The position numbers and the translations under genes were made by a program. A stretch of DNA of 64,000 nucleotides, from positions 108,995 to 172,994 of IMG/VR virus record IMGVR_UViG_3300038492_000258, one strand, 5' to 3'. A model generated the notes under the pieces. That model was not told the DNA's origin. It saw only the letters and a list, made by a program, of their open reading frames with translations, and made no database searches. Positions 13,385 to 51,144 of this stretch are shown here, piece after piece (position 1 is the first letter of the stretch; each line of letters begins with the position of its first letter). Source of the DNA: a virus. Its lineage: Duplodnaviria > Heunggongvirae > Uroviricota > Caudoviricetes.

Positions 13385-14215
13385 CGCGGATGAGATTCGC
13401 GACCTTCGGAAGAGGTGGGATGTAGCCCCCAAGTAGAGGTAACAGCGGCTGCGGCATCGTTAAATGCGGTGATTGTGTGGATAGAGGGAACGATAGCCAT
13501 GGATAGCTTCAACTGTCCGGGCACTCTACATGCCTTCGGGCATAGCCCTTCCGAAGAACTCTTTGACAACTTGTAATCGTACACCTGATGTTACGGTACC
13601 GTAACATCAGGAACCTAAGATAGTTACAGCAGAGAGGTAACTCTGCGGTATCGAGTATGAAGCCTCGGCATCACGTTACCAAGCATGCCAACCTCATGAA
13701 GGGAAGAGGATAAGAAAGATACCAGTAACTATTTATCTGACCCTGTCGTCTAGGCTAGGACACCCCCAATACTCAGGGGGAGACGAAGGTGCAACACCTT
13801 CCGGGGTCGCCAAACATGTTATTAACAAGCAGCTTATGGTGAAAAACTAAGGATAATGCTGACCCATAAACAAGTCCGTGGACCGATCTAAGCTTCCCCG
13901 GGCACTGCTACAATTACCACGAAGGGGTGGATAAGATTCTTGAAGTAAATAGAGACGTTCGCTTAGAAAACTATCTTTTTTATGAGGAGAACTCCGTCTC
14001 CGACAGAATTCCAAAATTGTATGTTGATAACAACTAGAGGCGAACATATTATCGCCTCTAAAGTCCAAACATGTATATGACGTAGCTACAGTCAGCATGT
14101 TTCTCTTAATCGGGCAAATTGTAGGAACGAATTCGGAATCGGCCAGCGATGTCCAGAATTCTTCGCGAGTATTAGGTTCGGACTGGCATACCCTTTTACG
14201 TCGAAGATTAAGAGT
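13385..14215 (+). ncRNA. long structured non-coding region (unknown RNA)
   Basis: No credible ORF; UUCG-capped hairpins (ATGCC-TTCG-GGCAT), long-range pairing CCTTCGGAAGAG/CTCTTCCGAAGG about 140 nt apart; the minus ORF 13847..14485 runs through tRNA genes and is spurious. Confidence 0.3.
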
Positions 14216-14319: not shown

Positions 14320-14465
14320 GGGATGGTATGTGGATGACAAGCGTGTGAAAGCTGGAACTTATGGAGAATGTAAATTGGCCAATTGCTTCCGTGAAGTAAG
14401 ATTCTTGGAGAACAAGATTTAGGCAGACCGGGCGTTGTGTTTGGGTTCGACTCCCAACCATTCCA
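14320..14465 (+). tRNA. tRNA-Ala-like paralog carrying an insertion of about 70 nt
   Basis: Same acceptor (GGGATGG/CCATTCC with G3.U70), D region and T arm as the tRNA-Ala at 6671..6747, but about 146 nt long. Confidence 0.35.
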
Positions 14466-14474
14466 TCAATCAAG

Positions 14475-14508: not shown

Positions 14509-16590
14509 ATGAACAAGCAAGAAATTCTTATTAAGAAGCGTGATGCGATCGAAGCTCGTCCGGCAGCTCGTGCTCGTGCGGCAGATCTGAAAGATCCTCG
14601 TGCTTTGGTTTTCCAAGCCGAAGCCATGAGGCTTGGATTTATCCTCAGCGAAGACCTTTTGTCTACCATTAGTCGTCTGAGCGACACCGCAATTATGGCC
14701 CTCTACAAAGAAGTGGTGCCTGTTCTGCGGAACATGGTCGGCGATGATGTCGAGTGGAAGCCGATGTATCCTAACTTCCCGAAGCAAGTTATGGAGGCAC
14801 CGGTTATTGAGCTTTTCCTTAACGCTATCGTTCACTATTGGTCGGGCGGACAATGGACGCCCGATTATGTCGCTGAGCCTCGTTTGCCGGCATTTGAAGC
14901 AACAAAATTCCGCACTCTGTCCCTTGCCGGGAGCGACGACCTAGCTTCTATCTTTACAGAAATTCTGTCCGCAAACGCTTCTGTTACGCCTGCGGATATC
15001 CGTATGCTCACGGAAATGTTTGATCGTGGCGATATTAATGAAGCTCAATTGGCAGCGGCCCTTCCGGATAATATTCCGTTTAGAGAAACTCTCTGCTGGT
15101 TTGTTGGTGAATGTATCGATCGTGGATGGACCGTGACGGGCATGGGAGCACTCAAAACGGCTACCGACGTATTGCGGGTAGCTACCCACCTTTCTCAAGG
15201 AGATGTTTCTCTTGCTGAGAATACTCGCTATCGTAGCTTTAGTCGCCCCTTGCGTAGGGCCTTCGTTGAAAGGTTGGAGCAAGTAGCGAACCAGAACGAT
15301 GTTTTCCGTCATCGTGGTAAATGGGTGCGTCTAGCTCACTCGTTACACGTTGGAGACTTTAGTGCCCAAGCACCTAATTTCTACAACATGATTACGGCTG
15401 CTCGGAGTAATGCTACTAAATATCAAAGCTTTGATGGTCGTGTAGAATCCGCCATTGCAAATCGCGACCGTAAGGGCGTTTGTAGTCTCCTAAAGCAACG
15501 TCCTGGTGTATTCGCACGTCGTCTTGATCATCTTCTGCGAGAATTTGGTCCCCGTGATATTGCACGGGAATTCATTGGTGTGGTTGATAAGGTAGATACG
15601 CGAGTACTGCTACAACTGCATGGTCATTTCAATGGACGTACTCAGAGCGTCGATCGTCGTTTGGTATTCCCGAAGGGCAATATGGGTAAGGCACGTTTGC
15701 TTACTAATACGCTAGAGGCTCTGCCTACGGCAACCGTAAAGCATATTCGTGATGGTATTGAAAGTGCTCTAGAGGCACGTTTTGCGACCCTAGATCCTCT
15801 TGGAAAAGTTTATATCGATAAGACACTTTGGGATTGCCCAATTCCATTGAGCCTACGTTCTGCATCCGAAGGGCTACAAACTGTCGCCCGAGGCACACGA
15901 ATGCCGATTGGGGATAAGGGTACCGTTCGGATGTTTATCTACTGGAAAGGTCGTGACATTGATCTTTCTGGATTCTTGGTAAATGAAGACTTTACGCAAG
16001 AAAGTACTGTCGCTTATTACAATCTAAGAGAAGGTTTCGGATGTCACTCTGGCGATATTACGAATGCTCCTCGTGGTGCTTCTGAGTTTATTGACATTAA
16101 TGTCGATCAAGCTTTGGCTGAAGGTCATCGTTACCTAGTAATGACCGTTCATGTATATTCTGGTCCTACTTTTAAGGAGCACGAAGTTTGTTATGCGGGC
16201 TGGATGACCAGAAGTCATCCTGGCAGTAATGAGATTTACGATCCCAAAACTGTTCAGCACCGCATCGATGTGCAGGCCGATAGCCGCACGGCTGTGCCTG
16301 TTATGTTTGACCTAAAAGAAAGACAAGCGATTTGGCTTGACTTGGTCCAACGTGGTGGTAATCTAAGGCGTCCTAACAATGTTGCGAACAGCAAGGCTGG
16401 CCTTGTGGATTTCATTGATGGGGCATTGAATATGGATAATAAGCCAACGCTCTTCGAGCTATTCGAAATGCATGCAAGAGCACGAGGTACGATCGTTGAC
16501 AATATGAATGATGCCGATAAAGTCTTCTCTTGGTCTGAAGGCACGAAGCCTACGGATGTATCAGAGATTCTTTCAGAGTATCTTGGTTGA
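14509..16590 (+). CDS. large hypothetical protein (693 aa)
   Basis: Long uninterrupted ORF; helical N-terminal two-thirds, C-terminal region with degenerate vWA-like DIDLSGF segment; function unknown. Confidence 0.45.
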   Translation: MNKQEILIKKRDAIEARPAARARAADLKDPRALVFQAEAMRLGFILSEDLLSTISRLSDTAIMALYKEVVPVLRNMVGDDVEWKPMYPNFPKQVMEAPVIELFLNAIVHYWSGGQWTPDYVAEPRLPAFEATKFRTLSLAGSDDLASIFTEILSANASVTPADIRMLTEMFDRGDINEAQLAAALPDNIPFRETLCWFVGECIDRGWTVTGMGALKTATDVLRVATHLSQGDVSLAENTRYRSFSRPLRRAFVERLEQVANQNDVFRHRGKWVRLAHSLHVGDFSAQAPNFYNMITAARSNATKYQSFDGRVESAIANRDRKGVCSLLKQRPGVFARRLDHLLREFGPRDIAREFIGVVDKVDTRVLLQLHGHFNGRTQSVDRRLVFPKGNMGKARLLTNTLEALPTATVKHIRDGIESALEARFATLDPLGKVYIDKTLWDCPIPLSLRSASEGLQTVARGTRMPIGDKGTVRMFIYWKGRDIDLSGFLVNEDFTQESTVAYYNLREGFGCHSGDITNAPRGASEFIDINVDQALAEGHRYLVMTVHVYSGPTFKEHEVCYAGWMTRSHPGSNEIYDPKTVQHRIDVQADSRTAVPVMFDLKERQAIWLDLVQRGGNLRRPNNVANSKAGLVDFIDGALNMDNKPTLFELFEMHARARGTIVDNMNDADKVFSWSEGTKPTDVSEILSEYLG

Positions 16591-17823: not shown

Positions 17824-17900
17824 GGCTCTGGGGCCCGTGAGGACGGGCAGTGGCCTCTAAAACCACTTTGTAGCGGGTTCGACTCCCGTCAGGGCCTCCA
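17824..17900 (+). tRNA. candidate amber-suppressor tRNA (anticodon CUA)
   Basis: Acceptor GGCTCTG/CAGGGCC (7 bp with one G.U), D arm GCCC-GTGAGGAC-GGGC, anticodon arm GTGGC-CUCUAAA-ACCAC with C.A at 31-39 (alternatively perfect 5-bp stem with 9-nt loop, CUA still central), T arm GCGGG-TTCGACT-CCCGT, ends TCCA. Confidence 0.45.
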
Positions 17901-27048: not shown

Positions 27049-27756
27049 ATGAAGAATCAGTGAAGAGGAAACGACACCGGAATCGTTGTCGAAATCCAGG
27101 CCGGTGAAGGTGGAGACGATTCAAAACTATTTGTTGACGACTTATTTTCTGCATACTTAAAATATGCGGAGACTAATAATGCCAAGACAGAACTAGTCTA
27201 TAAGTCGCACGGCAAAGTGGGCTTTAAAGTATTGGGAAATAAGGCTGCCAAGTTATTTAAACACGAAACCGGCAAGCATGTAGTGCAACGGTGTCCGCCA
27301 ACAGAGAATAAGGGAAGGCGGCATACCAGCACTATTACTGTTTCTATTCTTCCTATTCTTAGCTCATCTTCTTTTACTCTGAAAGAGCAAGATATTGAGA
27401 CAAAAACCCAACGTGGCCATGGGCCTGGTGGACAACACCAGAATACAACCGATTCAGCCGTCCGTATGGTTCATAAACCCACGGATACAGTTGTTTTCAT
27501 CAATGGGCGAGATCAGCATTCCAATAAGCGTTTAGCACGTCAAATTCTGGAAGCTAGAGTGGCCGAGAAAATCCGAGGCCGCCAAAACCGTGAACGATCT
27601 GAAAATAAACGAGAACAGGTTGACGGTGGCGGCCGAGGCAACAAAACTCGAACATACAATTTCCTTGACAGTCGAGTTGTAGACCATATACTTGGTACTC
27701 GCACGAGCAAGATCAAACAGGTCATGAAGGGCCGATTCGATTTACTCTGGAAATAA
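27049..27756 (+). CDS. class-I release factor homolog (RF1-like PxT-type) lacking domain 1, with in-frame UGA at codon 5
   Basis: After TGA at 27061 the frame encodes EIQAGEGGDDSKLFVDDLFSAYLKYAE...VVQRCPPTENKGRRHTS...GHGPGGQHQNTTDSAVRMVHKPT...RTYNF (RF domains 2-4: PPT tripeptide region, RHTS, GGQ); ATG 27049 is 4 codons upstream in frame; the ORF track only reports the part from GTG 27217. Confidence 0.55.
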
Positions 27757-34911: not shown

Positions 34912-35616
34912 ATGTGGTTACGCCTTCTAGTCTATATTTCAGTACTTTTTTACTTGGTTGAGCTGACCCTTGGGGCAGCGAACAGTCTAGAAGGTAATCC
35001 GTTCTTTCTGTGGACAGAACGGATGATTGCCACAGTATTTACTTGCGAATATGTCGTCCGTCTCAAGAGGGGCGGACGACAGTACGCACGATCTGGTCTC
35101 GGTATTGTAGATGCTATTGCCGTGATCCCATTTTGGGCTGGCTTTTTTGTGCCAGCCGCTTGGCTTGGTCCTGTGCGGGCCATGCGTATTCTGCGACTAC
35201 TTAAGTTATTCAGATATAATCCATCTTTACAACTAGTCGCAAGAGGCTTTAAACGTGCTTGGCCAATGTGTAGAGCACTATCAATAGCAACACTGATTTT
35301 CTGGCTATTCTCGTCCGTTGTGATCTTTGAGCTGGAAAAGACTGCACAACCAGATGACTTCACGCTTTATCAAAGTTTCTGGTTTACAGCCGTCACGATG
35401 ACGACAGTAGGGTATGGTGATATGTCTCCCCAGACTCCACCTGGGCAAGCATTCTCTATGGGGATGTTCATCGTGGCCCTGGCTTTGTATTCTGGAGTGC
35501 TTGGAACTATTGCGACAGCTCTATCAGAGGAAGTAAAAGATACTAATGAGCGATCTACTAGTGAATGTGGTACAAGTGAACGAAGTCAAACCCCATCCGA
35601 ATGCGGATCGGCTTGA
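34912..35616 (+). CDS. voltage-gated-type potassium channel
   Basis: Selectivity filter TMTTVGYGDM; S4-like RAMRILRLLKLFR with Arg every third residue; 5-6 TM helices. Confidence 0.7.
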   Translation: MWLRLLVYISVLFYLVELTLGAANSLEGNPFFLWTERMIATVFTCEYVVRLKRGGRQYARSGLGIVDAIAVIPFWAGFFVPAAWLGPVRAMRILRLLKLFRYNPSLQLVARGFKRAWPMCRALSIATLIFWLFSSVVIFELEKTAQPDDFTLYQSFWFTAVTMTTVGYGDMSPQTPPGQAFSMGMFIVALALYSGVLGTIATALSEEVKDTNERSTSECGTSERSQTPSECGSA

Positions 35617-36631
35617 ACTTGTTTGTATCGACGGCTGGGAAATTATTTCAGGCAAGGGTAACTATTCTGCGGGCGATACCGTAGTACATGTTCCACCCGA
35701 CGCTATGGTGCCAATGGCACGAGCCCAAGGATGGGGTGTAGACAAATACCTGTCCTTCCGTGGACAAGCCGAAATGGGCCGAGTCAAGGCCCAGAAACTA
35801 CGTGGCGTAGTTAGCTTCGGCTTCCTGGTTCCTAACGATACACAATCGGAGGTCGGCACCGACCTACGCGAACATTATGGCATCGAAAAATACGAACCAC
35901 CGGCACCTGGGATGGACGCTGGTAGAGTGCGTCATTGTCATCCTTTGTTTCATCGGTATACTAACATCCAAAATCTTCGAAACCATACTAGGAAACTCGA
36001 TTACGAACAAGAATTAATTGTAACCGAGAAAATTCACGGTACGAATAGTCGTGTTGGATGGGTTCGGCGTCTAGATCCCGCCGAAGGCGAGTCTGAATTC
36101 GAAAAGGTTGTAGGAACCCACAATACTCAACGGAAGTTGGAAGAGTGTGGTATTTACGGACTGCCTTTTGAATTGTACGATGACCAATTGGAACACATAT
36201 TTCTTGAGGCACAAAAATACTGCCCGCCTGGTGAGCAACTAAATTCTCTAATTATTTTTGGTGAAATCTACGGTGCTGGCGTTCAAGACCTTCATTACGG
36301 TAAAAAAGAACAAAAGGGATATCGTGTTTTCGACATTACCCTGAACGGTCGATACATTCCGTGGAAGACTATGGCCGCTTTGTGCGACGTTTATCGAGTA
36401 CCTACCGTAGAAGTTCTAGAACGTGGCTACTTTGGTTTCGATGACCTAAAGGCACTTGCCGAAGGCAATACTCTACACGACGATTCGCATATTCGTGAAG
36501 GAATTGTGGTGCGTCCGTTCGACCAAGAACTAACCTGGGGTCGCACAGAACGCGTCAACGACCGTCGCATGATTTTCAAACTAATTAATCCAGATTACTT
36601 GCTTCGCAAGGGTGGATCGGAGTATCACTGA
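35546..36631 (+). CDS. RNA ligase, Rnl2 family
   Basis: Nucleotidyltransferase motif I EKIHGTN as in T4 Rnl2; 361 aa. Confidence 0.55.
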   Translation: MSDLLVNVVQVNEVKPHPNADRLELVCIDGWEIISGKGNYSAGDTVVHVPPDAMVPMARAQGWGVDKYLSFRGQAEMGRVKAQKLRGVVSFGFLVPNDTQSEVGTDLREHYGIEKYEPPAPGMDAGRVRHCHPLFHRYTNIQNLRNHTRKLDYEQELIVTEKIHGTNSRVGWVRRLDPAEGESEFEKVVGTHNTQRKLEECGIYGLPFELYDDQLEHIFLEAQKYCPPGEQLNSLIIFGEIYGAGVQDLHYGKKEQKGYRVFDITLNGRYIPWKTMAALCDVYRVPTVEVLERGYFGFDDLKALAEGNTLHDDSHIREGIVVRPFDQELTWGRTERVNDRRMIFKLINPDYLLRKGGSEYH

Positions 36632-40204: not shown

Positions 40205-40281
40205 GGGTCCTTGGTGTTAACGGATAGCATAGCAGACTCTTAATCTGTCAGGTCTAGGTTCAAATCCTAGAGGACCCACCA
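40205..40281 (+). tRNA. tRNA-Lys (anticodon CUU), CCA encoded
   Basis: Acceptor GGGTCCT/AGGACCC, anticodon arm GCAGA-CTCTTAA-TCTGT, T arm CTAGG-TTCAAAT-CCTAG. Confidence 0.65.
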
Positions 40282-41194: not shown

Positions 41195-41284
41195 GGGGGC
41201 GTTTACCGAGCGGTCGAAGGTATCCGGCTTTTAACCGGGCGGGCGAAAGCCCCATCGTGGGTTCGAATCCTACCGCCCTCACCA
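41195..41284 (+). tRNA. long-variable-arm (Ser-like body) tRNA with Lys anticodon (UUU), CCA encoded
   Basis: D region ACCGAGCGGTCGAAGGT like tRNA-Ser; anticodon arm TCCGG-CTTTTAA-CCGGG (E. coli tRNA-Lys loop); extra arm GGGC-GAAA-GCCC; discriminator A. Confidence 0.5.
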
Positions 41285-41334
41285 ACTAAATTTTACGAAG
41301 ACTCTCTTGACAATACGACAAAGTCGTGTAGAAT

Positions 41335-41697
41335 GTGGACACTATGACTACGAAACGAACCAAGAAGAAGTTTCCCCTGGCGGACGTACTCACCATCGTT
41401 TGTGGCATCGAACTTGGCGAATCTGGCCGAGAGGGTGCCCTGAAAGTTGCTCGTTTTTTCATGGATGAGAAAGATATGTCCATGGAAGAGTTAGAGCAAC
41501 GCGGCTATGATATTCAGCAGTTGCTTCGAATTCAATTGACGCAATTTTCACAAATTGACGCTGAGGTTGATCAATACGAGAAATTCCTAGCAGCCGCAGA
41601 AGATCAGTCACAGGCCGACTCGCTTGCGGACGATTTCGTTACGCAACAGATGCATACTCACGGAGAAACTGTAGAAGTACATAAAATGGGGTCGTAG
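41335..41697 (+). CDS. acidic hypothetical protein
   Basis: 120-aa ORF. Confidence 0.35.
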   Translation: MDTMTTKRTKKKFPLADVLTIVCGIELGESGREGALKVARFFMDEKDMSMEELEQRGYDIQQLLRIQLTQFSQIDAEVDQYEKFLAAAEDQSQADSLADDFVTQQMHTHGETVEVHKMGS

Positions 41698-41764
41698 CCC
41701 AATCGGCAGAGGCAACAGACTTAAAATCTGTCAAGTGTGGGTTCGAGTCCCACCGACCCTACCA
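41688..41764 (+). tRNA. short-variable-arm tRNA with Leu anticodon (UAA), CCA encoded
   Basis: Acceptor GGGGTCG/CGACCCT, anticodon arm ACAGA-CTTAAAA-TCTGT, 5-nt variable loop, T arm GTGGG-TTCGAGT-CCCAC, A73. Confidence 0.55.
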
Positions 41765-41834
41765 ATCAGGTGAAGGACTTTATCCGAAGATTCGGATTTA
41801 CTATTCACGTATTAGTATTCTGGATTGTCGCTTC

Positions 41835-42080
41835 TTGTCTGATAACTATAATCTTAACCTTGTTATGAATGACACCACTAACTGGATTGACGTTTATGTC
41901 AGATCTAACGACGACTTTCTTGCACGGGAACGTTGGCCTTCGGTGCTTTGCTGTCGACCATTAACCGGGGAATGTATAGAAGCAGATTCTAAAAAACTTG
42001 GTAAAGTTTGCCGTGTTACGCACCGAAGAAAATCAGATGGTTCTCCTTATTTGGAGATTGAAGTAACAAAACTAGTTTAG
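41835..42080 (+). CDS. hypothetical protein
   Basis: 81-aa ORF. Confidence 0.3.
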   Translation: MSDNYNLNLVMNDTTNWIDVYVRSNDDFLARERWPSVLCCRPLTGECIEADSKKLGKVCRVTHRRKSDGSPYLEIEVTKLV

Positions 42081-42087
42081 AACAAAT

Positions 42088-42163
42088 GCACGAGTAGCCC
42101 AACGGCAGAGGCACATGGCTTAGGACCATGCAAGTGTGGGTTCGAATCCCACCTCGTGTACCA
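42088..42163 (+). tRNA. short-variable-arm tRNA with Leu anticodon (UAG), CCA encoded
   Basis: Paralog of 41688 tRNA; anticodon arm CATGG-CTTAGGA-CCATG, G37, 5-nt variable loop, A73. Confidence 0.55.
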
Positions 42164-43894: not shown

Positions 43895-44086
43895 ATGCCA
43901 ACATACGATTACAAGTGTATGGCCTGTGGCCATAGCCTGGAAATTTTCCAGAAAATCACCGAAGGTGCCAAACGAAAATGCCCCGAGTGTGGAGCACTCA
44001 AGCTAAAGCGGCAGATTGGCACCGGAGGTGCTATTATTTTCAAAGGTGAAGGATTTCACTGCAACGACTATCCGAAAAATGAGTAA
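43895..44086 (+). CDS. FmdB-family zinc-ribbon protein
   Basis: MPTYDYKCMACGH...CPECG. Confidence 0.45.
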   Translation: MPTYDYKCMACGHSLEIFQKITEGAKRKCPECGALKLKRQIGTGGAIIFKGEGFHCNDYPKNE

Positions 44087-44576
44087 CTTAGAACTTGAAT
44101 TAGAAAAGGCGATCAAAATTGCCCTAGAAGCTCATGCGGGCCAAATGGATAAGGCGGGGCAACCCTATATTCTTCATCCTTTGGCGGTTATGGGTATGGT
44201 GGCCACAACCGCCGAAAAAATCGTTGCAGTACTACATGACGTAATCGAAGATACTGACGTAACAATGCTTATTCTCCGAGGAGCCCTTGCTGTCGGAGAA
44301 GAGATTTTTGAAGCTATTGAAGCAATTACAAAACGCAAAAATAAAGAGTCATATCTCGAATACATGAATCGGGTGCGTGCCAGTAAAATCGCTACAATTG
44401 TAAAATTGGCCGATATGGCCCATAACACCGATCCGGACAGAATTAGCTATTTGAGCATTCAAAAGCAATTGCGTCTTGTAGCTAAATACGCCCGTGGACG
44501 CCATTATCTCAAAACTGGCGAATGGCACTCTACTCGCCAATTAGAAGAATTGATTAGGGCGGGATATAGACAGTAA
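44079..44576 (+). CDS. HD-domain phosphohydrolase (RelA/SpoT-type (p)ppGpp hydrolase-like)
   Basis: HAGQ...YILHPLAV...HDVIEDT pattern of the RelA/SpoT HD domain; ATG 44079 overlaps previous stop. Confidence 0.5.
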   Translation: MSNLELELEKAIKIALEAHAGQMDKAGQPYILHPLAVMGMVATTAEKIVAVLHDVIEDTDVTMLILRGALAVGEEIFEAIEAITKRKNKESYLEYMNRVRASKIATIVKLADMAHNTDPDRISYLSIQKQLRLVAKYARGRHYLKTGEWHSTRQLEELIRAGYRQ

Positions 44577-44628: not shown

Positions 44629-45357
44629 ATGCCGACACACGACTTTTGGGAAGTAGCAGACAATCGCGGTAGTCTCCGCTACGTAGAATACTTCCGACTT
44701 ATTTTTGACACGATTCCGCCCCTCACTCGCGGCTGGTTGGCGGGAGGAGCCCTCCGACGACTATTTGAGGGCCAAGTATTTGGCGGCCATGACTTTGATC
44801 TTTTCTTTCAAAGACAAGAAGACTCACAAGCTTATGCTGCTCTATTAGAGCAATGCGGTGCTGAAGAAAAGTATCGATCTGGTAATGCTATTACTTACCT
44901 TCTCAATATCGAAGGAAATGATTTTTATTTACAGGTAGTCACAGGATTCTATTCGGATACTGCCGAGGAATTATTGGGTAAATTTGACTTTACAGTTTGT
45001 CAATTCGCGACCGACGGAAAGGTACTGACCACCGGTCACGATAGTTTTGATCATCTCGACAATAAGGTGGTCGAAATCGATCACGCCGCCATCCATTCTG
45101 CTAGTTCAACAATCCATCGTTTATGTAAATTGGCAGCCGATGGATATAAGCCCGACAAAACAATGATTATTAGGATTTGTGGCACATTAGTTTCCAATCC
45201 GGAAACATTAACTGCAATGGGAGTCGTTAGTGGTGGTCCCGATCAAACAAATCCTTGCTTAACTCAGTATGAAAAGGCTGTTGCTACGGCAAAAGAAATG
45301 TCGAATATAGCTAATCAAGTTAAAAGCACTATCTTAGATGAGTCTGCTAATTTTTGA
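44629..45357 (+). CDS. nucleotidyltransferase-fold protein (Pol-beta superfamily), function unknown
   Basis: GGALRRLFEGQVFGGHDFDLFF fits hG[GS]-x(9-13)-DhD NTase signature. Confidence 0.4.
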   Translation: MPTHDFWEVADNRGSLRYVEYFRLIFDTIPPLTRGWLAGGALRRLFEGQVFGGHDFDLFFQRQEDSQAYAALLEQCGAEEKYRSGNAITYLLNIEGNDFYLQVVTGFYSDTAEELLGKFDFTVCQFATDGKVLTTGHDSFDHLDNKVVEIDHAAIHSASSTIHRLCKLAADGYKPDKTMIIRICGTLVSNPETLTAMGVVSGGPDQTNPCLTQYEKAVATAKEMSNIANQVKSTILDESANF

Positions 45358-46758: not shown

Positions 46759-46831
46759 GAAACGACTTGACTGATCTCCTGTAGGGGATATACTAGTGCG
46801 GGGTCATAGTGCCCCGCACTATTTTTATACA

Positions 46832-47299
46832 ATGAAAAAACTCATTATCATTCGCGGTCCTAGCGGTTCTGGTAAAACTACGATTGCTGCTAGCATTGGT
46901 CGTCACCAGGATTATAGTGTGTCTTGGCATGAAGCTGACGATTTTTTCGTTGGTGAAGATGGAGAGTATCATTTTAATCCTCAGTATCTTGGACAAGCTC
47001 ACAAGTCATGCCAGGATTCTGTTCGCGTTGAAATGTGTTACGAACGCTCGATTATTGTGGTTAGTAATACTTCAATGAAGCGTTGGGAGATGAATCCCTA
47101 TTTGCAGCTCGCACGAGAATTTGATTATGACATCGAAGTAATTCGTACGCCTGGCCCGTGGAACGCACAAGAGAGCTTTGAGCGTAACCTGCATGGTGTG
47201 CCCCTAACAACTATCGAAAAACAAATCGCTAAATACGAACCCTATGAGGGGGAGTTTGAGTGGCCTGATATTACTTATGAACGACGAGAACAAGAATAA
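46832..47299 (+). CDS. polynucleotide 5'-kinase-like P-loop protein (T4 Pnk kinase-domain-like)
   Basis: MKKLIIIRGPSGSGKTT and ERSIIVVSNTSMKRWE parallel T4 Pnk MKKIILTIGCPGSGKST and VIISDTNLNPERR; no HAD phosphatase domain. Confidence 0.5.
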   Translation: MKKLIIIRGPSGSGKTTIAASIGRHQDYSVSWHEADDFFVGEDGEYHFNPQYLGQAHKSCQDSVRVEMCYERSIIVVSNTSMKRWEMNPYLQLAREFDYDIEVIRTPGPWNAQESFERNLHGVPLTTIEKQIAKYEPYEGEFEWPDITYERREQE

Positions 47300-47606
47300 C
47301 CTGTCGGCTAAGAAAAGTCTTTGTTATACTTGCAAGCATGGTTTGTGTATTGCACAACAAATGCACGCACAGGTGCTCGGGGAAATTACAGAACAAGAAG
47401 TCGAGAGTGAAGACCTCTTAGATATTCCGTGGGACGACGGAACCGAACCGGCTTCGGAGATTCCGCACGGAATGCAGCATCTTCAGATGGACAGAGTGTG
47501 CTCGCTGTGTTACTATAACCCGCCGGGTCGCACTGATCCCCCCACTATCAATGCTGCCGTTATCACGGATTGCAACCGATATGAACGAGACGATTCTATC
47601 CAATAA
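47278..47606 (+). CDS. hypothetical Cys-rich protein
   Basis: About 109 aa, CYTCKHGLC. Confidence 0.3.
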
Positions 47607-48888
47607 ACACATTGATCTATGTACGGGACTCCGAGATGTTGGGGCGACTCCCTACATTGTCGGTGGTTGTGTACGTGATATGTTGTTAGGGCGTCGTCCC
47701 AAAGATATCGACATTGTTGTTGTCGGTATTGACGAGAACGATTTAATCGACAGAATGGATGCCGCTGGATGGAACATCAAGTGTGTCGGTGCAGCATTTC
47801 CTGTATATCTAATTAATGATATCGAAGTGGCCTTGGCTCGTAAAGAACACAAGGTCGCGGAAGGGCATCGTGGTTTCGAATGCGACACTGCAAATATTAC
47901 GCTGGAAGAAGATCTCTTCCGTCGTGACCTGACTATTAATGCTATTGCAATGGACCCATTTAGTGGAGACATTATCGATCCATACAATGGCGTACAACAC
48001 ATTAAGGGACAAATTCTAAACCCTGTTAGTCAACATTTTGCAGAGGACCCGCTACGTGTCCTGCGGGCGGCACGTTTCGCTGCACAACTAGATTTCAATA
48101 GTACAGATGAACTAAAACTGGCGGCAGCCAATGTTCTCCCTGAATTAATTGATCTATCCGGTGAACGTGTATTTGGAGAACTACTAAAAGCTCTCCGTAG
48201 TGATCGTCCTAGTAAATTCATTACAGTATTGGATGAACTTGGTGCCCTGGAAATTGTATTCCCTGAGATCTACAATCTCAAAGGGCGTGTTCAACCAGAG
48301 AAATATCATCCCGAGGGTGATGCATACGTACATACATTACTTGTTCTAGATCGCTGCCGTGCTCTCGGGGGTGACGATGAAACAATGTATGCAGCCTTAT
48401 TACATGATTTAGGTAAGGCGGTCACCCCCGACGACAATTTACCTCACCATTATGATCACGAGCGTCTCGGCGTTCCTCTTGTGAGGACCTTATCCGAACG
48501 CATTAAGGCTCCCACAAGCTTTCGCAAAACTGCTGAAACTGCTTCGCGGGAACATCTTAACGTGCATCGTTTTGATACAATGAAACCGATTAAGAAGGTG
48601 AGAATGATTGTGAGGCTCGGGGCCTTACAAAATGATCTACTATTGCGTAGGGTGGCTCTCGCCTCACAGGCTGACGCTCAGGGACGTGGTCCTGATTTTA
48701 TTGATGCCCCTTATCCAAGCAGAATCAATCTGATTAAGGCGGCTGAAGTTGCTCGCAGTGTAAGGGGTCATGAGTTTGCCCACCTAAAGAACGGGCGAGT
48801 TATTGCACAGAAAATGGAGGCCGCTAGAGCTAAGGCTTTAGAGGCCGCAGGATTCCGTAAGGTAGGAAATAGTTATGGTAACAATTAA
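47551..48888 (+). CDS. cca: tRNA nucleotidyltransferase (CCA-adding enzyme) with HD domain
   Basis: Head-domain motif GGCVRDMLLGRRPKDIDIVV, C-terminal HD (HHYDHERLG). Confidence 0.75.
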   Translation: MLPLSRIATDMNETILSNKHIDLCTGLRDVGATPYIVGGCVRDMLLGRRPKDIDIVVVGIDENDLIDRMDAAGWNIKCVGAAFPVYLINDIEVALARKEHKVAEGHRGFECDTANITLEEDLFRRDLTINAIAMDPFSGDIIDPYNGVQHIKGQILNPVSQHFAEDPLRVLRAARFAAQLDFNSTDELKLAAANVLPELIDLSGERVFGELLKALRSDRPSKFITVLDELGALEIVFPEIYNLKGRVQPEKYHPEGDAYVHTLLVLDRCRALGGDDETMYAALLHDLGKAVTPDDNLPHHYDHERLGVPLVRTLSERIKAPTSFRKTAETASREHLNVHRFDTMKPIKKVRMIVRLGALQNDLLLRRVALASQADAQGRGPDFIDAPYPSRINLIKAAEVARSVRGHEFAHLKNGRVIAQKMEAARAKALEAAGFRKVGNSYGNN

Positions 48889-49248: not shown

Positions 49249-49530
49249 ATGAACGAAAGTCAACCCTCACTTCGACGGTTCCTATTTGTTCGCGACGAAG
49301 ACGTTTCTGGTGTTAGTGGCGTAGGCGTTGTAGCAGAAGGAACCGAATTTACAGACGGCTCAATTGTGATTCGGTGGCTTAGTCACATGGCATCGTTTGG
49401 TACATTTGCTAATATCAAAGCCTTCCAGTCTATCCATGGTCATAATGGCAAGGGCAAGATTGAATGGCTAGATCCAGAGCCCACCGACGAAGAGCCAAAG
49501 AAAAGTACTTCAAAAAGAAAAAGTAAGTAG
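49249..49530 (+). CDS. hypothetical protein
   Basis: 93-aa ORF. Confidence 0.35.
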   Translation: MNESQPSLRRFLFVRDEDVSGVSGVGVVAEGTEFTDGSIVIRWLSHMASFGTFANIKAFQSIHGHNGKGKIEWLDPEPTDEEPKKSTSKRKSK

Positions 49531-49549: not shown

Positions 49550-50074
49550 TTGGATTGTCCAACCCTATTCAACAGGAGGAATTGTATGAGTGCATTAACA
49601 CAATCGCAAATTGATACTCTGGCCGAAGGCTGGAAACTGAAGGTAGCGGGCCAAGCTCAGTATGAATATCATCGTATGAGCGAAATCGCTAAGTTAATCT
49701 CGGAGGAAAATTGGGATGAGGTAAAGGTCCAGTTAACATTTGGTAAAGATAAGTACGTGGTTCATACGCTTGCTTTGGATATCTTTTATCTAATGTTACA
49801 AAGTGCTCTGGGCAGACGAGTTCCCGAGGAGGAGGCTGTCGGTGACTTATCTGAGCAGGATATGCTTTTCCTGGAAAACAAATATAACGAATTTGCTCCC
49901 ACGGTACCTGTTATTATCGCCAATCTTGAATCTCTTTTGACCTTCTTAAACTCGGGCAATACTGGCCCGGAGTTTATTTTACTATTTGACACTACTAAGT
50001 TGCTAACGCACGAGCTGTTTGTGAAAGAGCAAGCATGGACTCACCACTTCCAGGCGTTAGCTTATGAGCAATGA
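49550..50074 (+). CDS. hypothetical protein
   Basis: 174-aa ORF. Confidence 0.4.
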   Translation: MDCPTLFNRRNCMSALTQSQIDTLAEGWKLKVAGQAQYEYHRMSEIAKLISEENWDEVKVQLTFGKDKYVVHTLALDIFYLMLQSALGRRVPEEEAVGDLSEQDMLFLENKYNEFAPTVPVIIANLESLLTFLNSGNTGPEFILLFDTTKLLTHELFVKEQAWTHHFQALAYEQ

Positions 50075-51144
50075 AAGACAGTCTACTTTTAAATAAAATT
50101 TGGAAAGAGGTGGAGGCTGGCAATGTGTCCGCCAGCCGCACCGACAACCTTACTATATTCAAATATACTCAGGATTGTCATATTCAGGGTAATTGGAATG
50201 ACGTTAATCGTCAGTGTCGAGGAATCATATTCCGCGATGACGGCACCGTTGTAGCTAGACCCTTTTCTAAATTTTTCAATTTAAATGAGCTTCCTGAAAC
50301 TGAGCCTCGAAATCTCCCATGGCGTGAGGGGATAGAGGTATACGAAAAGCTCGATGGTAGCTGTGGCACGGGGTATCGTAAAGAAACGTGGGATGCTGGT
50401 ATTGGTACACATACGAAATGGTTTATAGCAACGCCAGGCAGCATGGAATCAGACCAGGCTGTCGAGGGTACTGCCATGCTTGGTATGTACAATCTAGAAT
50501 TCATGCCACAAAACTGTACACCAGTATTCGAGATTATCTATCCTGATAATAGAATTGTCGTAGATTATAACGGTTTTCGTGGATTGGTATTGTTAGCTAT
50601 CTTCGATCACAACGGAGAAGAGTGGCATCCACGTCGTGTAGACAGTATTGCTGAAGTTTGTGGTTTCCGCAGACCAAAAGTATATGACATCGATATTCGT
50701 GGAGAGATTCCTTTTGAGGATAACGCTGAAGGCTATGTCGCAAGATTTGGTTGTGGCACGCGTGTGAAAATCAAAAGCCCAGCTTACCTCAGGATTCATA
50801 GATTGTTGGATCGTCTCTCGCCCAAAGGAGTTATCGAACTAATGCAGGGCAGAGAATACGGTATGACTGTGCGTCAATTACCTGACTCTATCGCCAAGGA
50901 TTTCGACGATATCCGTGCTCATGTCCAGGGAGTCTTTAACTCTGTTCTTACAGAAGTTGGCGAGAAATATCGTGACATGATGGAGACCGTTGGTCAACAT
51001 GCGAATCGAAAAGCCTATGCTATGTGGATTGCGGAGAACGCACCGCAAGAACTTGCTGGCTTTGTTTTTGCTATGATGGATGGCAAAGATTTCGATCATA
51101 AGATTTGGAAGCTAGTATTAGAGAAAGTTACCAATGGTTCATAA
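50071..51144 (+). CDS. RNA ligase 1 (T4 RnlA-like tRNA repair ligase)
   Basis: CRGIIFRDDG, RPFSKFFNLNELPE and motif I EKLDGS (Lys at about residue 99) parallel T4 Rnl1 CRGIMFEMDG, RPMEKFFNLNENPF, KEDGS; similar length. Confidence 0.8.
   Translation: MKDSLLLNKIWKEVEAGNVSASRTDNLTIFKYTQDCHIQGNWNDVNRQCRGIIFRDDGTVVARPFSKFFNLNELPETEPRNLPWREGIEVYEKLDGSCGTGYRKETWDAGIGTHTKWFIATPGSMESDQAVEGTAMLGMYNLEFMPQNCTPVFEIIYPDNRIVVDYNGFRGLVLLAIFDHNGEEWHPRRVDSIAEVCGFRRPKVYDIDIRGEIPFEDNAEGYVARFGCGTRVKIKSPAYLRIHRLLDRLSPKGVIELMQGREYGMTVRQLPDSIAKDFDDIRAHVQGVFNSVLTEVGEKYRDMMETVGQHANRKAYAMWIAENAPQELAGFVFAMMDGKDFDHKIWKLVLEKVTNGS

What the first reader, a model, noticed from the sequence alone, without database searches (positions are those of the whole stretch)
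41195..42163. tRNAs with swapped architecture: long-arm bodies with Lys/Asn anticodons, short-arm bodies with Leu anticodons
The element at 41195..41284 has a tRNA-Ser-like D loop (CCGAGCGGTCGAAGG), a long extra arm (GGGC-GAAA-GCCC) and an anticodon loop identical to tRNA-Lys (CUUUUAA, A73). The element at 20138..20227 is likewise long-armed but carries the tRNA-Asn loop CUGUUAA with G73. Conversely, 41688..41764 and 42088..42163 are paralogous short-variable-arm tRNAs carrying UAA and UAG (leucine) anticodons with A73. Lys and Asn are charged by anticodon-reading class IIb synthetases, so these should still be charged with the cognate amino acid. The unusual bodies could make the phage copies resistant to host anticodon nucleases or tRNA-targeting defences that recognise the native tRNA-Lys/Leu/Asn shape (PrrC, RloC, PARIS-type, retron-associated nucleases).
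Basis: seen in the sequence. Interest (0 to 1): 0.65.

Follow-up and report, generated by a model that had tools for sequence, protein, structure and literature searches.

The report
Phage tRNAs with altered variable arms
This phage carries lysine and asparagine tRNAs with an extra hairpin arm and leucine tRNAs that lack theirs; both forms are real, conserved and common in phages, probably still carry the right amino acid, and may help phage tRNAs escape host tRNA-cutting defences, which is untested.

Summary
41195-41284 (anticodon UUU, A73) and 20138-20227 (GUU, G73) are 90-nt tRNAs with a 4-bp, GAAA-capped extra arm. 41688-41764 (UAA) and 42088-42163 (UAG) are 77/76-nt leucine tRNAs with a 5-nt variable loop. 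They are not peculiar to this window. A related phage has orthologues with compensatory changes in the extra arm. Long-arm tRNA-Asn/Lys occur in phiKZ-like, rV5-like, T5-like and Caulobacter phages and in at least 118 IMG/VR contigs. Short-arm tRNA-Leu matches 521 phage records. About 11% of sampled viral tRNA-Asn are long-armed and 38% of tRNA-Leu are short-armed, and the two traits are not coupled. "Swap" is the wrong word. The discriminator base and the 1-72 pair follow the anticodon whatever the arm length, so Lys/Asn identity is kept. The short Leu tRNAs keep A73, A14-A15 and U48, so they are tRNA-Leu minus the arm. Cognate charging is well supported by comparison but not measured. Escape from tRNA-targeting defences is plausible: a phage tRNA-Tyr variable loop matters for evading Retron-Eco7, and this window carries RNA-repair genes. 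It remains untested. I found no paper describing these phage classes.

The parts
41195..41284 (+). tRNA-Lys(UUU) with a class II body: V region of 17 nt with arm GGGC-GAAA-GCCC, Ser/Tyr-like D region CCGAGCGGTCGAAGG, G1-C72, A73, encoded CCA. There is one extra nucleotide between the acceptor and D stems.
   Evidence: ARAGORN. Rfam 35.3 bits. Model R1 87 bits. Orthologue in L287 with a compensatory change in the arm.
20138..20227 (+). tRNA-Asn(GUU) with a class II body: arm GGGA-GAAA-UCCC, U1-A72, G73, encoded CCA. It is the only Asn tRNA in the window. It shares the anticodon stem and extra-arm design with 41195-41284.
   Evidence: 57.6 bits; 94.7 bits.
41688..41764 (+). tRNA-Leu(UAA) of class I: 5-nt variable loop CAAGU, Leu-type D arm GCCCAAUCGGCAGAGGC, G1.U72, A73, CCA.
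   Evidence: (64.4 bits). Homologues in 521 phage records. Short orthologue in L287.
42088..42163 (+). tRNA-Leu(UAG) of class I. Its D arm, V loop and T arm are near-identical to those of 41688-41764 (one D-loop base and one T-loop base differ). Its acceptor stem resembles the long-arm Leu(UAG) of the related phage L287.
   Evidence: (60.3 bits).
40205..40281 (+). Conventional short-arm tRNA-Lys(CUU), listed for comparison within the same genome.
47551..48888 (+). Context: CCA-adding tRNA nucleotidyltransferase (PolyA_pol head, RNA-binding and HD domains).
   Evidence: Pfam. Used to find the related phage.
50071..51144 (+). Context: T4 Rnl1-type RNA ligase.
   Evidence: PF09511.
35546..36631 (+). 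Context: second RNA ligase (PF09414 plus PHA02142 OB domain).
46796..47299 (+). Context: AAA_33 P-loop kinase, a possible polynucleotide-kinase-type end-healing enzyme. The function is inferred.
23460..23879 (+). Context: cyclic-phosphate-processing receiver domain protein (cREC_REC).
   Evidence: PF20274.

Best explanation
The four elements are functional phage tRNA genes. They belong to two separate structural classes that are widespread in phages and other mobile elements.

(1) **tRNA-Lys(UUU) and tRNA-Asn(GUU)** are built on a class II body, with a 3-4 bp extra arm usually capped by a GNRA loop and a CCGAG-type D region. They keep the elements that Lys and Asn charging reads, which are the anticodon and A73 or G73, with U1-A72 for Asn. 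They are therefore charged with Lys or Asn. For Asn this is either direct or, in some hosts, via Asp-tRNA(Asn) and amidation.

(2) **tRNA-Leu(UAA) and tRNA-Leu(UAG)** have lost the long arm but keep A73, A14-A15, U48 and the Leu-type D arm. LeuRS, which ignores the anticodon, should therefore still charge them.

Together these tRNAs decode AAR, AAY, UUR and CUN. That is about 18% of codons in the window's + strand genes.

The most likely reason for the altered arm is inferred, not shown. It would reshape the tRNA core and variable region so that host tRNA-directed nucleases or toxins fail to act on the phage copies. Such enzymes read tRNA shape, the variable loop, the D loop or the 39-41 stem sequence. 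The phage also carries a near-complete tRNA set, a CCA-adding enzyme and RNA-repair enzymes.

Sub-confidences: genuine and cognately charged, about 0.85. Arm change selected for defence escape, about 0.4.
For: **Real tRNAs.**

**Conserved in the lineage.**
- A phage with a 60% identical CCA-adding enzyme (L287/L295) has long-arm Asn, long-arm Lys(UUU) and short Leu(UAA).
- Its extra arms differ from the window's by compensatory changes: GGGA/UCCC against GAGA/UCUC, and GGGC/GCCC against GAGC/GCUC.

**Widespread.**
- Cultured phages CcrColossus, GAP31, OMKO1 (phiKZ-like) and vB_PF_Y1-MI carry them.
- An SP15-type Asn with arm GUC-GAAA-GAC matches 550 records.
- At least 118 IMG/VR contigs carry them.
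- The same pattern gives only 35 hits in 596 Gb of bacterial and archaeal genomes, nearly all inside dense tRNA arrays.

**Identity follows the anticodon.**
- Long Asn has G73 in 61/70 and long Lys(UUU) has A73 in 36/42.
- Long Cys has U73 in 7/7 and long Trp has G73 in 7/7.
- This matches the published identity sets (PMC9976931).

**The extra arm is unlike tRNA-Ser.**
- The arm has 3-4 bp and the V region averages 15.9 nt. Phage tRNA-Ser has 5-7 bp and 18.3 nt.
- Window Asn has U1-A72 and C2-G71, not the G1-C72 and G2-C71 of tRNA-Ser.

**Short Leu tRNAs are tRNA-Leu.**
- A14-A15 in 49/60, A73 in 55/60 and U48 in 53/60. Long Leu has 94/107, 102/107 and 97/107.
- The long arm is dispensable for E. 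coli Leu identity (PMC9976931).
- A class I tRNA-Leu is charged in S. coelicolor (PMC6614811).

**Defence link.**
[quoted passage not shown] The SP15 phage tRNA-Tyr is not cut, and altering its variable loop abolishes the rescue.
- AriB of PARIS targets Lys(UUU), Thr(UGU) and Asn(GUU), cuts at 40|41 within U36AAUC|A and senses D-loop U16-U17. Both long-arm window tRNAs read UAACCG there.
- AbiEii and MenT3 prefer class II tRNAs.
- The window carries RNA-repair and anti-defence genes.
Against: - No aminoacylation, expression or cleavage data exist for any of these tRNAs. The host is unknown.
- E. coli LeuRS did not charge the S. coelicolor class I tRNA-Leu. Charging of short-arm Leu is therefore not guaranteed in every host.
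- Many long-arm Lys tRNAs elsewhere keep U39 (35/42). The extra arm therefore does not always come with changes at the PARIS site.
- Long arms also occur at low frequency in isotypes with no known nuclease link, such as Cys, Trp, Ile and Pro. Short Leu and long Asn are not coupled. Both facts fit drift as well as selection.
- Bas34, a T5 relative with its own tRNA-Asn, still needed the T5 tRNA-Asn to escape PARIS. I could not establish whether its Asn is the long-arm type.
Confidence: 0.55

Rival explanations
1. Neutral structural drift. Lys, Asn and Leu charging does not inspect the variable arm, so phage tRNA genes can gain or lose it without cost. The arm is then kept only because, once present, the fold needs it. 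There is no adaptive role.
For: - Long arms occur at low frequency in many isotypes, including Cys, Trp, Ile, Met, Pro and Gln.
- Long Asn and short Leu are not associated.
- Arm sequences are very variable, and 22/138 form no predicted hairpin.
- Phage tRNAs also show other oddities, such as the enlarged D loop in GAP31 Lys.
Against: - The arm persists with compensatory changes across very distant phages. Half of the arms carry GNRA loops.
- Enrichment in viral contigs over cellular genomes is strong.
- The D region is co-adapted to class II form.
- In the window lineage, Leu(UAG) switched from long to short recently by taking over the core of Leu(UAA).
- Isoacceptor specificity is sharp: about 10 of 47 Thr(UGU) are long, against 0 of 48 for the other Thr isoacceptors (raw gene counts; sequences).
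Confidence: 0.28
2. Mischarging. SerRS, TyrRS or LeuRS reads the class II bodies, so AAA or AAY codons are partly translated as Ser, Tyr or Leu. This would resemble nematode nev-tRNAs or bacterial allo-tRNAs.
For: - Serine identity rests mainly on the long variable arm and ignores the anticodon.
- The Asn version has G73, which is also the Ser discriminator.
- The D region resembles tRNA-Ser and tRNA-Tyr.
- nev-tRNAs and allo-tRNAs set a precedent.
Against: - The discriminator base and the 1-72 pair follow the anticodon, not the body: A73 with UUU, G73 with GUU, U73 with GCA.
- Window Asn has U1-A72 and C2-G71 instead of the G1-C72 and G2-C71 conserved in tRNA-Ser.
- The arms are 3-4 bp, against 5-7 bp in phage tRNA-Ser.
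- Long Lys has C as the last variable-region base, which implies a G15:C48 pair. Leu has A15:U48.
- AAA and AAY are heavily used codons here: 477 and 650 in 73 ORFs. This tRNA is the only Asn tRNA in the window.
- The acceptor and T stems are 7/5, not 8/4 or 9/3.
Confidence: 0.05
3. Non-translational role. The odd tRNAs act mainly as decoys or competitive inhibitors of tRNA-targeting nucleases. Alternatively, the arm is a label that lets phage enzymes (repair, CCA addition, or a phage nuclease that removes host tRNAs) tell phage tRNAs from host tRNAs.
For: - Authors of the PARIS and Septu studies suggest that overexpressed phage tRNAs may inhibit or decoy the nuclease.
- The window encodes its own CCA-adding enzyme and two RNA ligases.
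Against: - Intact anticodon loops (CUNUUAA invariant), identity elements and encoded CCA point to selection for decoding.
- These tRNAs are the phage's only copies for AAA, AAY, UUR and CUN.
- No phage tRNA nuclease was found among the window proteins examined. Only about 30 ORFs were scanned.
Confidence: 0.1

Closest known systems
Nematode nev-tRNAs and eukaryotic noncanonical V-arm tRNAs (PMC3333845; Hamashima et al. 2016, cited in PMC5389517)
   Same: A class II body with a long variable arm carries an anticodon that is not Leu, Ser or Tyr.
   Different: The abstract describes them as decoding an alternative genetic code for leucine. From my own knowledge, they are charged according to the body (Leu) and so mistranslate. 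In the phage tRNAs the discriminator and 1-72 pair follow the anticodon, which points to cognate Lys/Asn charging. The phage class is found in viruses and mobile tRNA arrays of bacteria.
Bacterial and phage allo-tRNAs and (8/4) tRNA-Ser/His (PMC5389517)
   Same: They are long-V-arm tRNAs with diverse anticodons, found in metagenomes, some of them in phage tRNA clusters.
   Different: Allo-tRNAs have 8/4 or 9/3 acceptor/T branches, tRNA-Sec-like D arms and Ser/Ala identity. The window tRNAs have a canonical 7/5 branch and Lys/Asn identity elements.
Class I tRNA-Leu(CAA) of Streptomyces coelicolor and animal mitochondrial tRNA-Leu (PMC6614811)
   Same: tRNA-Leu with a 5-nt variable loop. The S. 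coelicolor loop is ACAGC and the phage loops are CAAGU or ACAGU. It is charged by a LeuRS that also charges class II tRNA-Leu.
   Different: The phage versions keep A73 almost always (55/60) and are spread over phages of Proteobacteria, Actinobacteria and others. E. coli LeuRS did not charge the Streptomyces tRNA, so recognition by the hosts is unproven.
Nuclease-resistant phage tRNAs: SP15/T5 tRNA-Tyr against Retron-Eco7, and T5 tRNA-Lys(UUU) against PARIS AriB (PMC12673091, PMC13096335, PMC11464382, PMC12409363)
   Same: A phage-encoded isoacceptor differs from the host tRNA at the site the immune nuclease reads, either the variable loop or stem positions 39-41, and so sustains translation. 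The window Lys and Asn tRNAs also differ at 39-41 (CCG, against UCA in E. coli tRNA-Lys and UCC in E. coli tRNA-Asn).
   Different: Those cases involve point changes or a different long loop within the normal class. Here the whole class changes, from I to II or II to I. No cleavage assay exists for the window tRNAs.

Membership tests
Canonical tRNA (Rfam RF00005) | Cloverleaf with a 7-bp acceptor stem, D arm, 5-bp anticodon stem with a 7-nt loop (U33, purine 37), and a 5-bp T stem with a GTTCRA loop. | tested here: met
   All four score above the 29-bit gathering score. ARAGORN drawings agree. 98.1% of cells pair, with covariation in every helix, across 140 relatives.
Class II (type II) tRNA | Variable region longer than 10 nt that forms its own stem-loop. 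| tested here: met
   Met for 41195-41284 and 20138-20227: 17-nt V region, 4 bp plus a GAAA loop. The helix covaries. Not met for 41688-41764 and 42088-42163, which have 5-nt loops.
tRNA-Lys (bacterial identity set) | Anticodon UUU (U35 strongest) plus discriminator A73. | tested here: met
   41195-41284 has UUU and A73. A73 occurs in 36/42 long-arm homologues. The identity set is from PMC9976931.
tRNA-Lys (bacterial identity set) | Actual lysylation by LysRS. | not testable with these tools
   This needs an aminoacylation assay.
tRNA-Asn (bacterial identity set) | Anticodon GUU plus discriminator G73. U1-A72 is typical of bacterial tRNA-Asn (the last point is from my own knowledge). | tested here: met
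   20138-20227 has GUU, G73 and U1-A72. Among long-arm homologues, G73 occurs in 61/70 and U1-A72 in 42/70.
tRNA-Ser (bacterial identity set) | Long variable arm of Ser-type size and orientation, G73, and G1-C72 with G2-C71. | tested here: not met
   The arm has 4 bp, against 5-7 bp in phage tRNA-Ser. The Lys version has A73. The Asn version has U1-A72 and C2-G71. Only G73 of the Asn version and the CCGAG D region fit.
tRNA-Leu (E. coli-type identity set) | A73, A14, the A15-U48 pair and G18G19 placement in a Leu-type D loop. | tested here: met
   Both short Leu tRNAs have A73, D arm GCCCAA(U)CGGCAGAGGC with A14-A15 and GG, and a V loop ending in U. The frequencies match those of long-arm phage Leu.
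tRNA-Leu (E. coli-type identity set) | Long variable arm, present in almost all bacterial tRNA-Leu. | tested here: not met
   The loop is 5 nt. The arm is reported as dispensable for E. coli LeuRS. However, E. coli LeuRS did not charge the S. coelicolor class I tRNA-Leu.
Allo-tRNA / tRNA-Sec-like | 8/4 or 9/3 acceptor/T-stem branch. | tested here: not met
   The arrangement is 7/5 in all four. The covariance model with 7/5 fits at 87-95 bits.
Phage tRNAs resistant to an immune tRNase | Sequence or shape differs from the host isoacceptor at the nuclease's recognition site. | tested here: inconclusive
   Positions 36-41 read UAACCG in both long-arm tRNAs, against the UAAUC|A AriB site in E. coli tRNA-Lys. 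The variable region is restructured. The host and its defences are unknown.
Phage tRNAs resistant to an immune tRNase | Demonstrated resistance to cleavage and rescue of infection. | not testable with these tools
   This needs cleavage and plaque assays.

The most novel reading that the evidence does not exclude
Switching the class of a tRNA, by adding a variable arm to Lys, Asn or Thr(UGU) or removing it from Leu, while keeping synthetase identity, is a general and so far undescribed phage counter-defence. It would defeat immune nucleases and toxins that recognise tRNA shape. Class II tRNA-Asn/Lys and class I tRNA-Leu would then be signatures of that arms race, and the textbook rule that only Leu, Ser and Tyr are class II in bacteria would not hold for the phage tRNA pool.
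Probability: 0.27. Interest if true: 0.8.

Novelty: new variant of a known kind. Interest (0 to 1): 0.5.

Why it matters
[quoted passage not shown] It would also give simple sequence markers for which host defences a phage has faced.

Even without that, the census is useful. In the viral loci sampled here, roughly one tRNA-Asn in nine is class II and more than a third of tRNA-Leu are class I. This departs from the standard classification. It probably contributes to anticodon/isotype-model mismatches such as those reported for phage Sf14 (PMC12482277). It also offers natural scaffolds showing that Lys and Asn charging may tolerate a long extra arm, which interests tRNA engineers.

The same architectures occur in culturable phages of E. 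coli, Pseudomonas, Cronobacter and Caulobacter. The question is therefore directly testable.

Tried and rejected
- **Megablast of 40-44 kb against INPHARED.** No match, so the phage is novel.
- **Exact pattern from the shared anticodon stem and arm in IMG/VR.** One chance hit inside a coding region, not a tRNA.
- **The search for related loci with the hydrolase next to tRNA-Lys.** No relatives.
- **Recoding.** The window has an amber-suppressor-like tRNA(CUA) and an RF-1-domain protein. However, TAG ends 15/73 ORFs, and treating any stop codon as sense barely changes the coding length. I dropped recoding as an explanation.
- **Codon test at catalytic lysines.** The DNA ligase and Rnl1 KxDG lysines both use AAG, which is uninformative about AAA.
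- **Using the PARIS experiments with T5 tRNA-Asn as functional evidence for long-arm Asn.** Rejected, because T5 itself has a 78-nt class I tRNA-Asn. Only SP15-type relatives have the arm.
- **Coupling of long Asn with short Leu.** Not found.
- **Single-sequence MFE folding.** It does not recover the D and anticodon arms of the long tRNAs, so I did not use it as evidence either way.
- **Alternative fold with the extra hairpin as the anticodon arm.** Impossible, because the loop has 4 nt.
- **Literature.** Ten full-text searches and 15 papers found no description of class II-bodied tRNA-Asn/Lys or of class I tRNA-Leu in phages. The library lacks most subscription journals, so this absence is weak evidence.
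Full report
**1. Observation**

ARAGORN finds 28 tRNA genes in the window, including the four in question at exactly the reported coordinates. Its drawings confirm each detail.

- 41195-41284: 90 nt, anticodon loop CUUUUAA, CCGAGCGGTCGAAGG D region, a 17-nt variable region with a GGGC-GAAA-GCCC hairpin, G1-C72, A73 and an encoded CCA.
- 20138-20227: 90 nt, loop CUGUUAA, hairpin GGGA-GAAA-UCCC, U1-A72, G73 and CCA.
- These two share the anticodon stem UCCGG/CCGG and the design of the extra arm.
- 41688-41764 (UAA) and 42088-42163 (UAG): 77 and 76 nt, with a 5-nt variable loop CAAGU, A73 and G1.U72. Their D arm, variable loop and T arm are near-identical, differing by one D-loop base and one T-loop base.

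Rfam's tRNA model hits all four above its gathering score of 29 bits, at 35.3, 57.6, 64.4 and 60.3 bits. It treats the extra arm as an insertion in the variable region. The extra hairpin has a 4-nt loop and cannot serve as an anticodon arm.

MFE folding of single sequences keeps the acceptor, extra and T arms but mispairs the D and anticodon region of the two long tRNAs. I rely on the comparative evidence below instead.

**2. Setting**

The window comes from a new large phage. It has no near match in INPHARED. The same contig is on record as JGI 3300039208 Ga0169445_00004, 78.5 kb.

The tRNA set covers every amino acid except Cys. It has one Asn tRNA, the long-arm one, and two Lys tRNAs: a conventional CUU and the long-arm UUU.

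Among the tRNAs lie these genes:

- a CCA-adding enzyme (47551-48888)
- a T4 Rnl1-type RNA ligase (50071-51144)
- a second RNA ligase (35546-36631)
- an AAA_33 kinase (46796-47299)
- a cyclic-phosphate-processing receiver protein (23460-23879)
- an HD protein (44016-44576)
- Gad2-like and Acb5-like anti-defence proteins

In 73 + strand ORFs the codons read by the four tRNAs are heavily used: AAA 477, AAG 333, AAU 396, AAC 254, UUR 404 and CUN 820.

**3. Relatives**

A metagenome scan with the CCA-adding enzyme found a phage whose enzyme is 60% identical (L287/L288/L295, contigs up to 125 kb).

- It has a long-arm Asn(GUU) of 89 nt, a long-arm Lys(UUU) of 89 nt and a short Leu(UAA) of 77 nt.
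- Its extra arms differ from the window's by compensatory changes: GGGA/UCCC against GAGA/UCUC, and GGGC/GCCC against GAGC/GCUC. U1-A72 with G73, and A73, are kept.
- Its Leu(UAG) is long-armed (87 nt).
- The window's short Leu(UAG) shares the unusual G1.U72, C2-G71, A3-U70 acceptor end with that gene. It has the core of the window's Leu(UAA). This suggests that the core was replaced recently, switching the gene from long to short. This step is inferred.

The same architectures occur in cultured phages.

- Long-arm Lys(CUU) in Caulobacter phage CcrColossus.
- Long-arm Asn in Cronobacter phage GAP31, phiKZ-like OMKO1 and Pseudomonas phage vB_PF_Y1-MI.
- A short Leu(UAG) in GAP31.
- T5-like SP15 has an 83-nt Asn with arm GUC-GAAA-GAC and a 77-nt Leu(UAA).
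- That Asn matches 550 phage records. The window's short Leu matches 521, including T5-like, FelixO1-like, mycobacterial, Streptomyces and Rhodococcus phages.
- T5 itself has a class I Asn and a long Leu(UAG).

It hit only 35 places in 596 Gb of bacterial and archaeal genomes, nearly all inside dense tRNA arrays. The class therefore belongs to phages and mobile elements.

**4. Is the extra arm a selected structure?**

I built a covariance model from 14 sequences and used it to align the 150 best matches from 100 sources. That alignment contains 140 distinct sequences.

- 98.1% of cells pair, against 60.7% in shuffles (0/500 reach the observed value) and at most 47.5% when partners are slid.
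- All four pairs of the extra arm show changes on both sides, and 93.7% of their cells pair.
- The alignment is fitted to the model, which favours the structure. The orthologue comparison is independent of it.

Among 138 unique long-arm Asn/Lys genes, the arm has mostly 3-4 bp, and 70 carry GNRA tetraloops. Phage tRNA-Ser arms have 5-7 bp.

**5. Whose identity do they carry?**

The table counts unique viral sequences carrying each feature.

| Anticodon | Feature | Long-arm | Short-arm |
|---|---|---|---|
| Asn GUU | G73 | 61/70 | 37/39 |
| Asn GUU | U1-A72 | 42/70 | 23/39 |
| Lys UUU | A73 | 36/42 | 37/40 |
| Cys GCA | U73 | 7/7 | 17/19 |
| Trp CCA | G73 | 7/7 | 37/40 |
| Thr UGU | U73 | 7/10 | 31/37 |

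- The acceptor end therefore follows the anticodon, not the body.
- Lys and Asn identity are published as the anticodon plus A73 or G73. Asn identity was transplanted into tRNA-Lys with just those elements.
- Ser identity needs the Ser-type arm, G73 and G1-C72 with G2-C71. The window tRNAs do not offer that combination.
- The long Lys/Asn bodies end the variable region in C (52/57 for Lys). This implies a G15:C48 pair rather than the A15:U48 of Leu.
- I conclude that they are cognate Lys and Asn tRNAs with an added arm. This is an inference from comparative data, not a measurement.

**6. The short Leu tRNAs**

The table compares unique short-arm and long-arm phage tRNA-Leu genes.

| Feature | Short Leu (n=60) | Long Leu (n=107) |
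|---|---|---|
| A14-A15 | 49 | 94 |
| A73 | 55 | 102 |
| Variable region ends in U | 53 | 97 |
| G1.U72 | 24 | 33 |

- They are tRNA-Leu that lost the arm, not Lys-type bodies with new anticodons.
- In E. coli, A73, A14, A15-U48, G18G19 and A20a define Leu identity, and the arm is dispensable.
- S. coelicolor has a class I tRNA-Leu(CAA) charged by its single LeuRS. E. coli LeuRS did not charge that tRNA, so charging in a given host remains to be shown.

**7. Prevalence and coupling**

I took a sample of viral loci chosen only for having a tRNA(GUU), whatever the arm length.

- 12 of 112 Asn genes are long-armed, and 20 of 53 Leu genes are short-armed.
- Leu is short in 2/6 cases at loci with long Asn, and in 16/43 at loci with short Asn.
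- The two traits are therefore independent, and "swapped" is a misnomer.

In the loci selected for long Asn/Lys, long arms also occur in these isoacceptors (raw gene counts; sequences):

- Thr(UGU): about 10 of 47, against 0 of 48 for the other Thr isoacceptors
- Met/Ile(CAU)
- Cys
- Trp
- Ile(UAU)

**8. Mechanism**

*Shown.* These are genuine, conserved tRNA genes with intact decoding loops and cognate identity elements.

*Inferred.* They are charged cognately and supply about 18% of the phage's codons.

*Hypothesis.* The changed arm protects them from host tRNA-directed defences.

The precedents and context for that hypothesis are:

- Retron-Eco7 PtuAB cuts E. coli tRNA-Tyr in the variable loop. 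SP15 tRNA-Tyr is not cut, and changing its variable loop abolishes the rescue.
- PARIS AriB targets Lys(UUU), Thr(UGU) and Asn(GUU). It cuts at 40|41 within UAAUC|A and senses the D loop. The window Lys and Asn tRNAs read UAACCG at that site.
- AbiEii and MenT3 prefer class II tRNAs.
- The window's RNA-repair genes show that tRNA damage matters to this phage.

Against the hypothesis:

- Nothing has been tested, and the host is unknown.
- Most long-arm Lys tRNAs elsewhere keep U39.
- The spread over many isotypes fits drift as well as selection.

Rivals are ranked in the report sections: neutral drift (0.28), a decoy or self-label role (0.10) and mischarging (0.05).

**9. Comparison and novelty**

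The nearest known kinds are:

- nev-tRNAs and allo-tRNAs, which have class II bodies with foreign anticodons. Their identity follows the body, or they have 8/4 or 9/3 stems.
- the S. coelicolor and mitochondrial class I tRNA-Leu.
- the nuclease-resistant T5/SP15 tRNAs.

The window tRNAs fail the allo-tRNA stem test and the Ser identity test. They pass the Lys, Asn and Leu identity tests at sequence level.

The genes are annotated as plain tRNA-Asn, tRNA-Lys or tRNA-Leu in hundreds of GenBank records. I found no paper that describes or explains the classes (ten searches). One paper on phage Sf14 notes unexplained mismatches between anticodon and isotype model.

I rate this a new variant of a known kind. 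It is not unique to this window, and its interest is moderate.

**10. Limits**

- Class calls rest on ARAGORN parses with a 10-nt threshold.
The first required CCGAG and GGTTCGANTCC, and the second required GGTTCGANTCC.
- The E. coli D-arm comparisons and U1-A72 as an Asn feature rest on my own knowledge.
- The literature library omits most subscription journals.

Noticed in passing
window 17824-17900 and 27217-27756: There is an amber-suppressor-like tRNA (anticodon CUA, called tRNA-Pyl by ARAGORN) and a 179-aa protein with RF-1/PCRF release-factor domains. The combination recalls stop-codon-recoding phages. However, TAG ends 15/73 ORFs here, and reading TAG as sense barely lengthens the coding sequence.
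   Followed up: partly
window 14320-14468 and 14509-16590: A tRNA-like element gives a weak tmRNA-model hit (E=1.8e-4, far below gathering). It lies just upstream of a 693-aa protein that is homologous to a Rhodococcus phage Weasels2 protein. In the related phage Trina, a gene annotated as Ro RNA-binding protein lies just downstream of a tRNA-Tyr gene and a 209-nt 'tRNA-OTHER'; I did not verify that it is the homologue of the 693-aa protein. This may be a Ro/Y-RNA-like module.
   Followed up: partly
window 13739-13812: ARAGORN calls a 74-nt 'tRNA-Ser(ACU)' with a poor anticodon arm. Rfam does not report it. It is probably a degenerate or tRNA-like element. ARAGORN makes a similar Ser(act) call inside the stable RNA 'rnaX' of T5.
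   Followed up: no
window 20232-20330: Directly after tRNA-Asn lies a sequence with a Glu/Asp-type D arm (TCTAGTGGCCTAGGA) and a GGTTCAAATCC T loop. Neither ARAGORN nor Rfam calls it as a tRNA. It may be a decayed or interrupted tRNA gene.
   Followed up: partly
window 23460-23879, 35546-36631, 44016-44576, 44629-45357, 46796-47299, 47551-48888, about 49249-49530, 50071-51144: RNA-repair and anti-defence genes are interleaved with the tRNAs: cREC_REC, two RNA ligases, an HD protein, a Gad2-like protein, an AAA_33 kinase, a CCA-adding enzyme and an Acb5-like protein. NAMPT, NUDIX and a DNA ligase lie nearby.
   Followed up: partly
window 42088-42163 against L287 7495-7581: The window's short Leu(UAG) looks chimeric. 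Its acceptor end resembles the long-arm Leu(UAG) of the related phage, but its D arm, V loop and T arm are near-identical to the window's short Leu(UAA). This suggests gene conversion of the tRNA core.
   Followed up: partly
L005 1239-1325 (Cronobacter phage GAP31); L287 6715-6794; L283 2547-2633 (Rhodococcus phage Trina): Other odd phage tRNA bodies turned up. GAP31 tRNA-Lys(UUU) has a normal variable loop but a greatly enlarged D loop (87 nt). L287 Lys(CUU) has an enlarged D arm (80 nt). Trina has an 87-nt tRNA-Glu and a 74-nt tRNA-Tyr.
   Followed up: no
viral loci L008-L125, for example L053, L070 and L077 (Thr UGU), L011 and L060 (Cys), L056 and L089 (Trp): Long-arm versions of Thr(UGU), Cys(GCA), Trp(CCA), Ile(UAU/GAU) and Met/Ile(CAU) occur, each with the discriminator expected for its anticodon. 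About 10 of 47 Thr(UGU) are long, against 0 of 48 for the other Thr isoacceptors. Lys(UUU), Thr(UGU) and Asn(GUU) are the reported PARIS AriB targets.
   Followed up: partly
L146 6852-6937 and L152 7181-7266 (Thermoleophilia MAG contigs of 0.8 and 2.8 Mb): Two long-arm tRNA-Lys(UUU) genes stand alone rather than in a tRNA array. They may be chromosomal or prophage-borne copies in bacteria.
   Followed up: no
window 41307-41334 and 41782-41797: A near-consensus sigma-70-type promoter (TTGACA-16-TAGAAT, 11/12) lies just downstream of tRNA-Lys(UUU). A terminator-like hairpin lies just after tRNA-Leu(UAA). This suggests a host with a sigma-70-type RNA polymerase.
   Followed up: no
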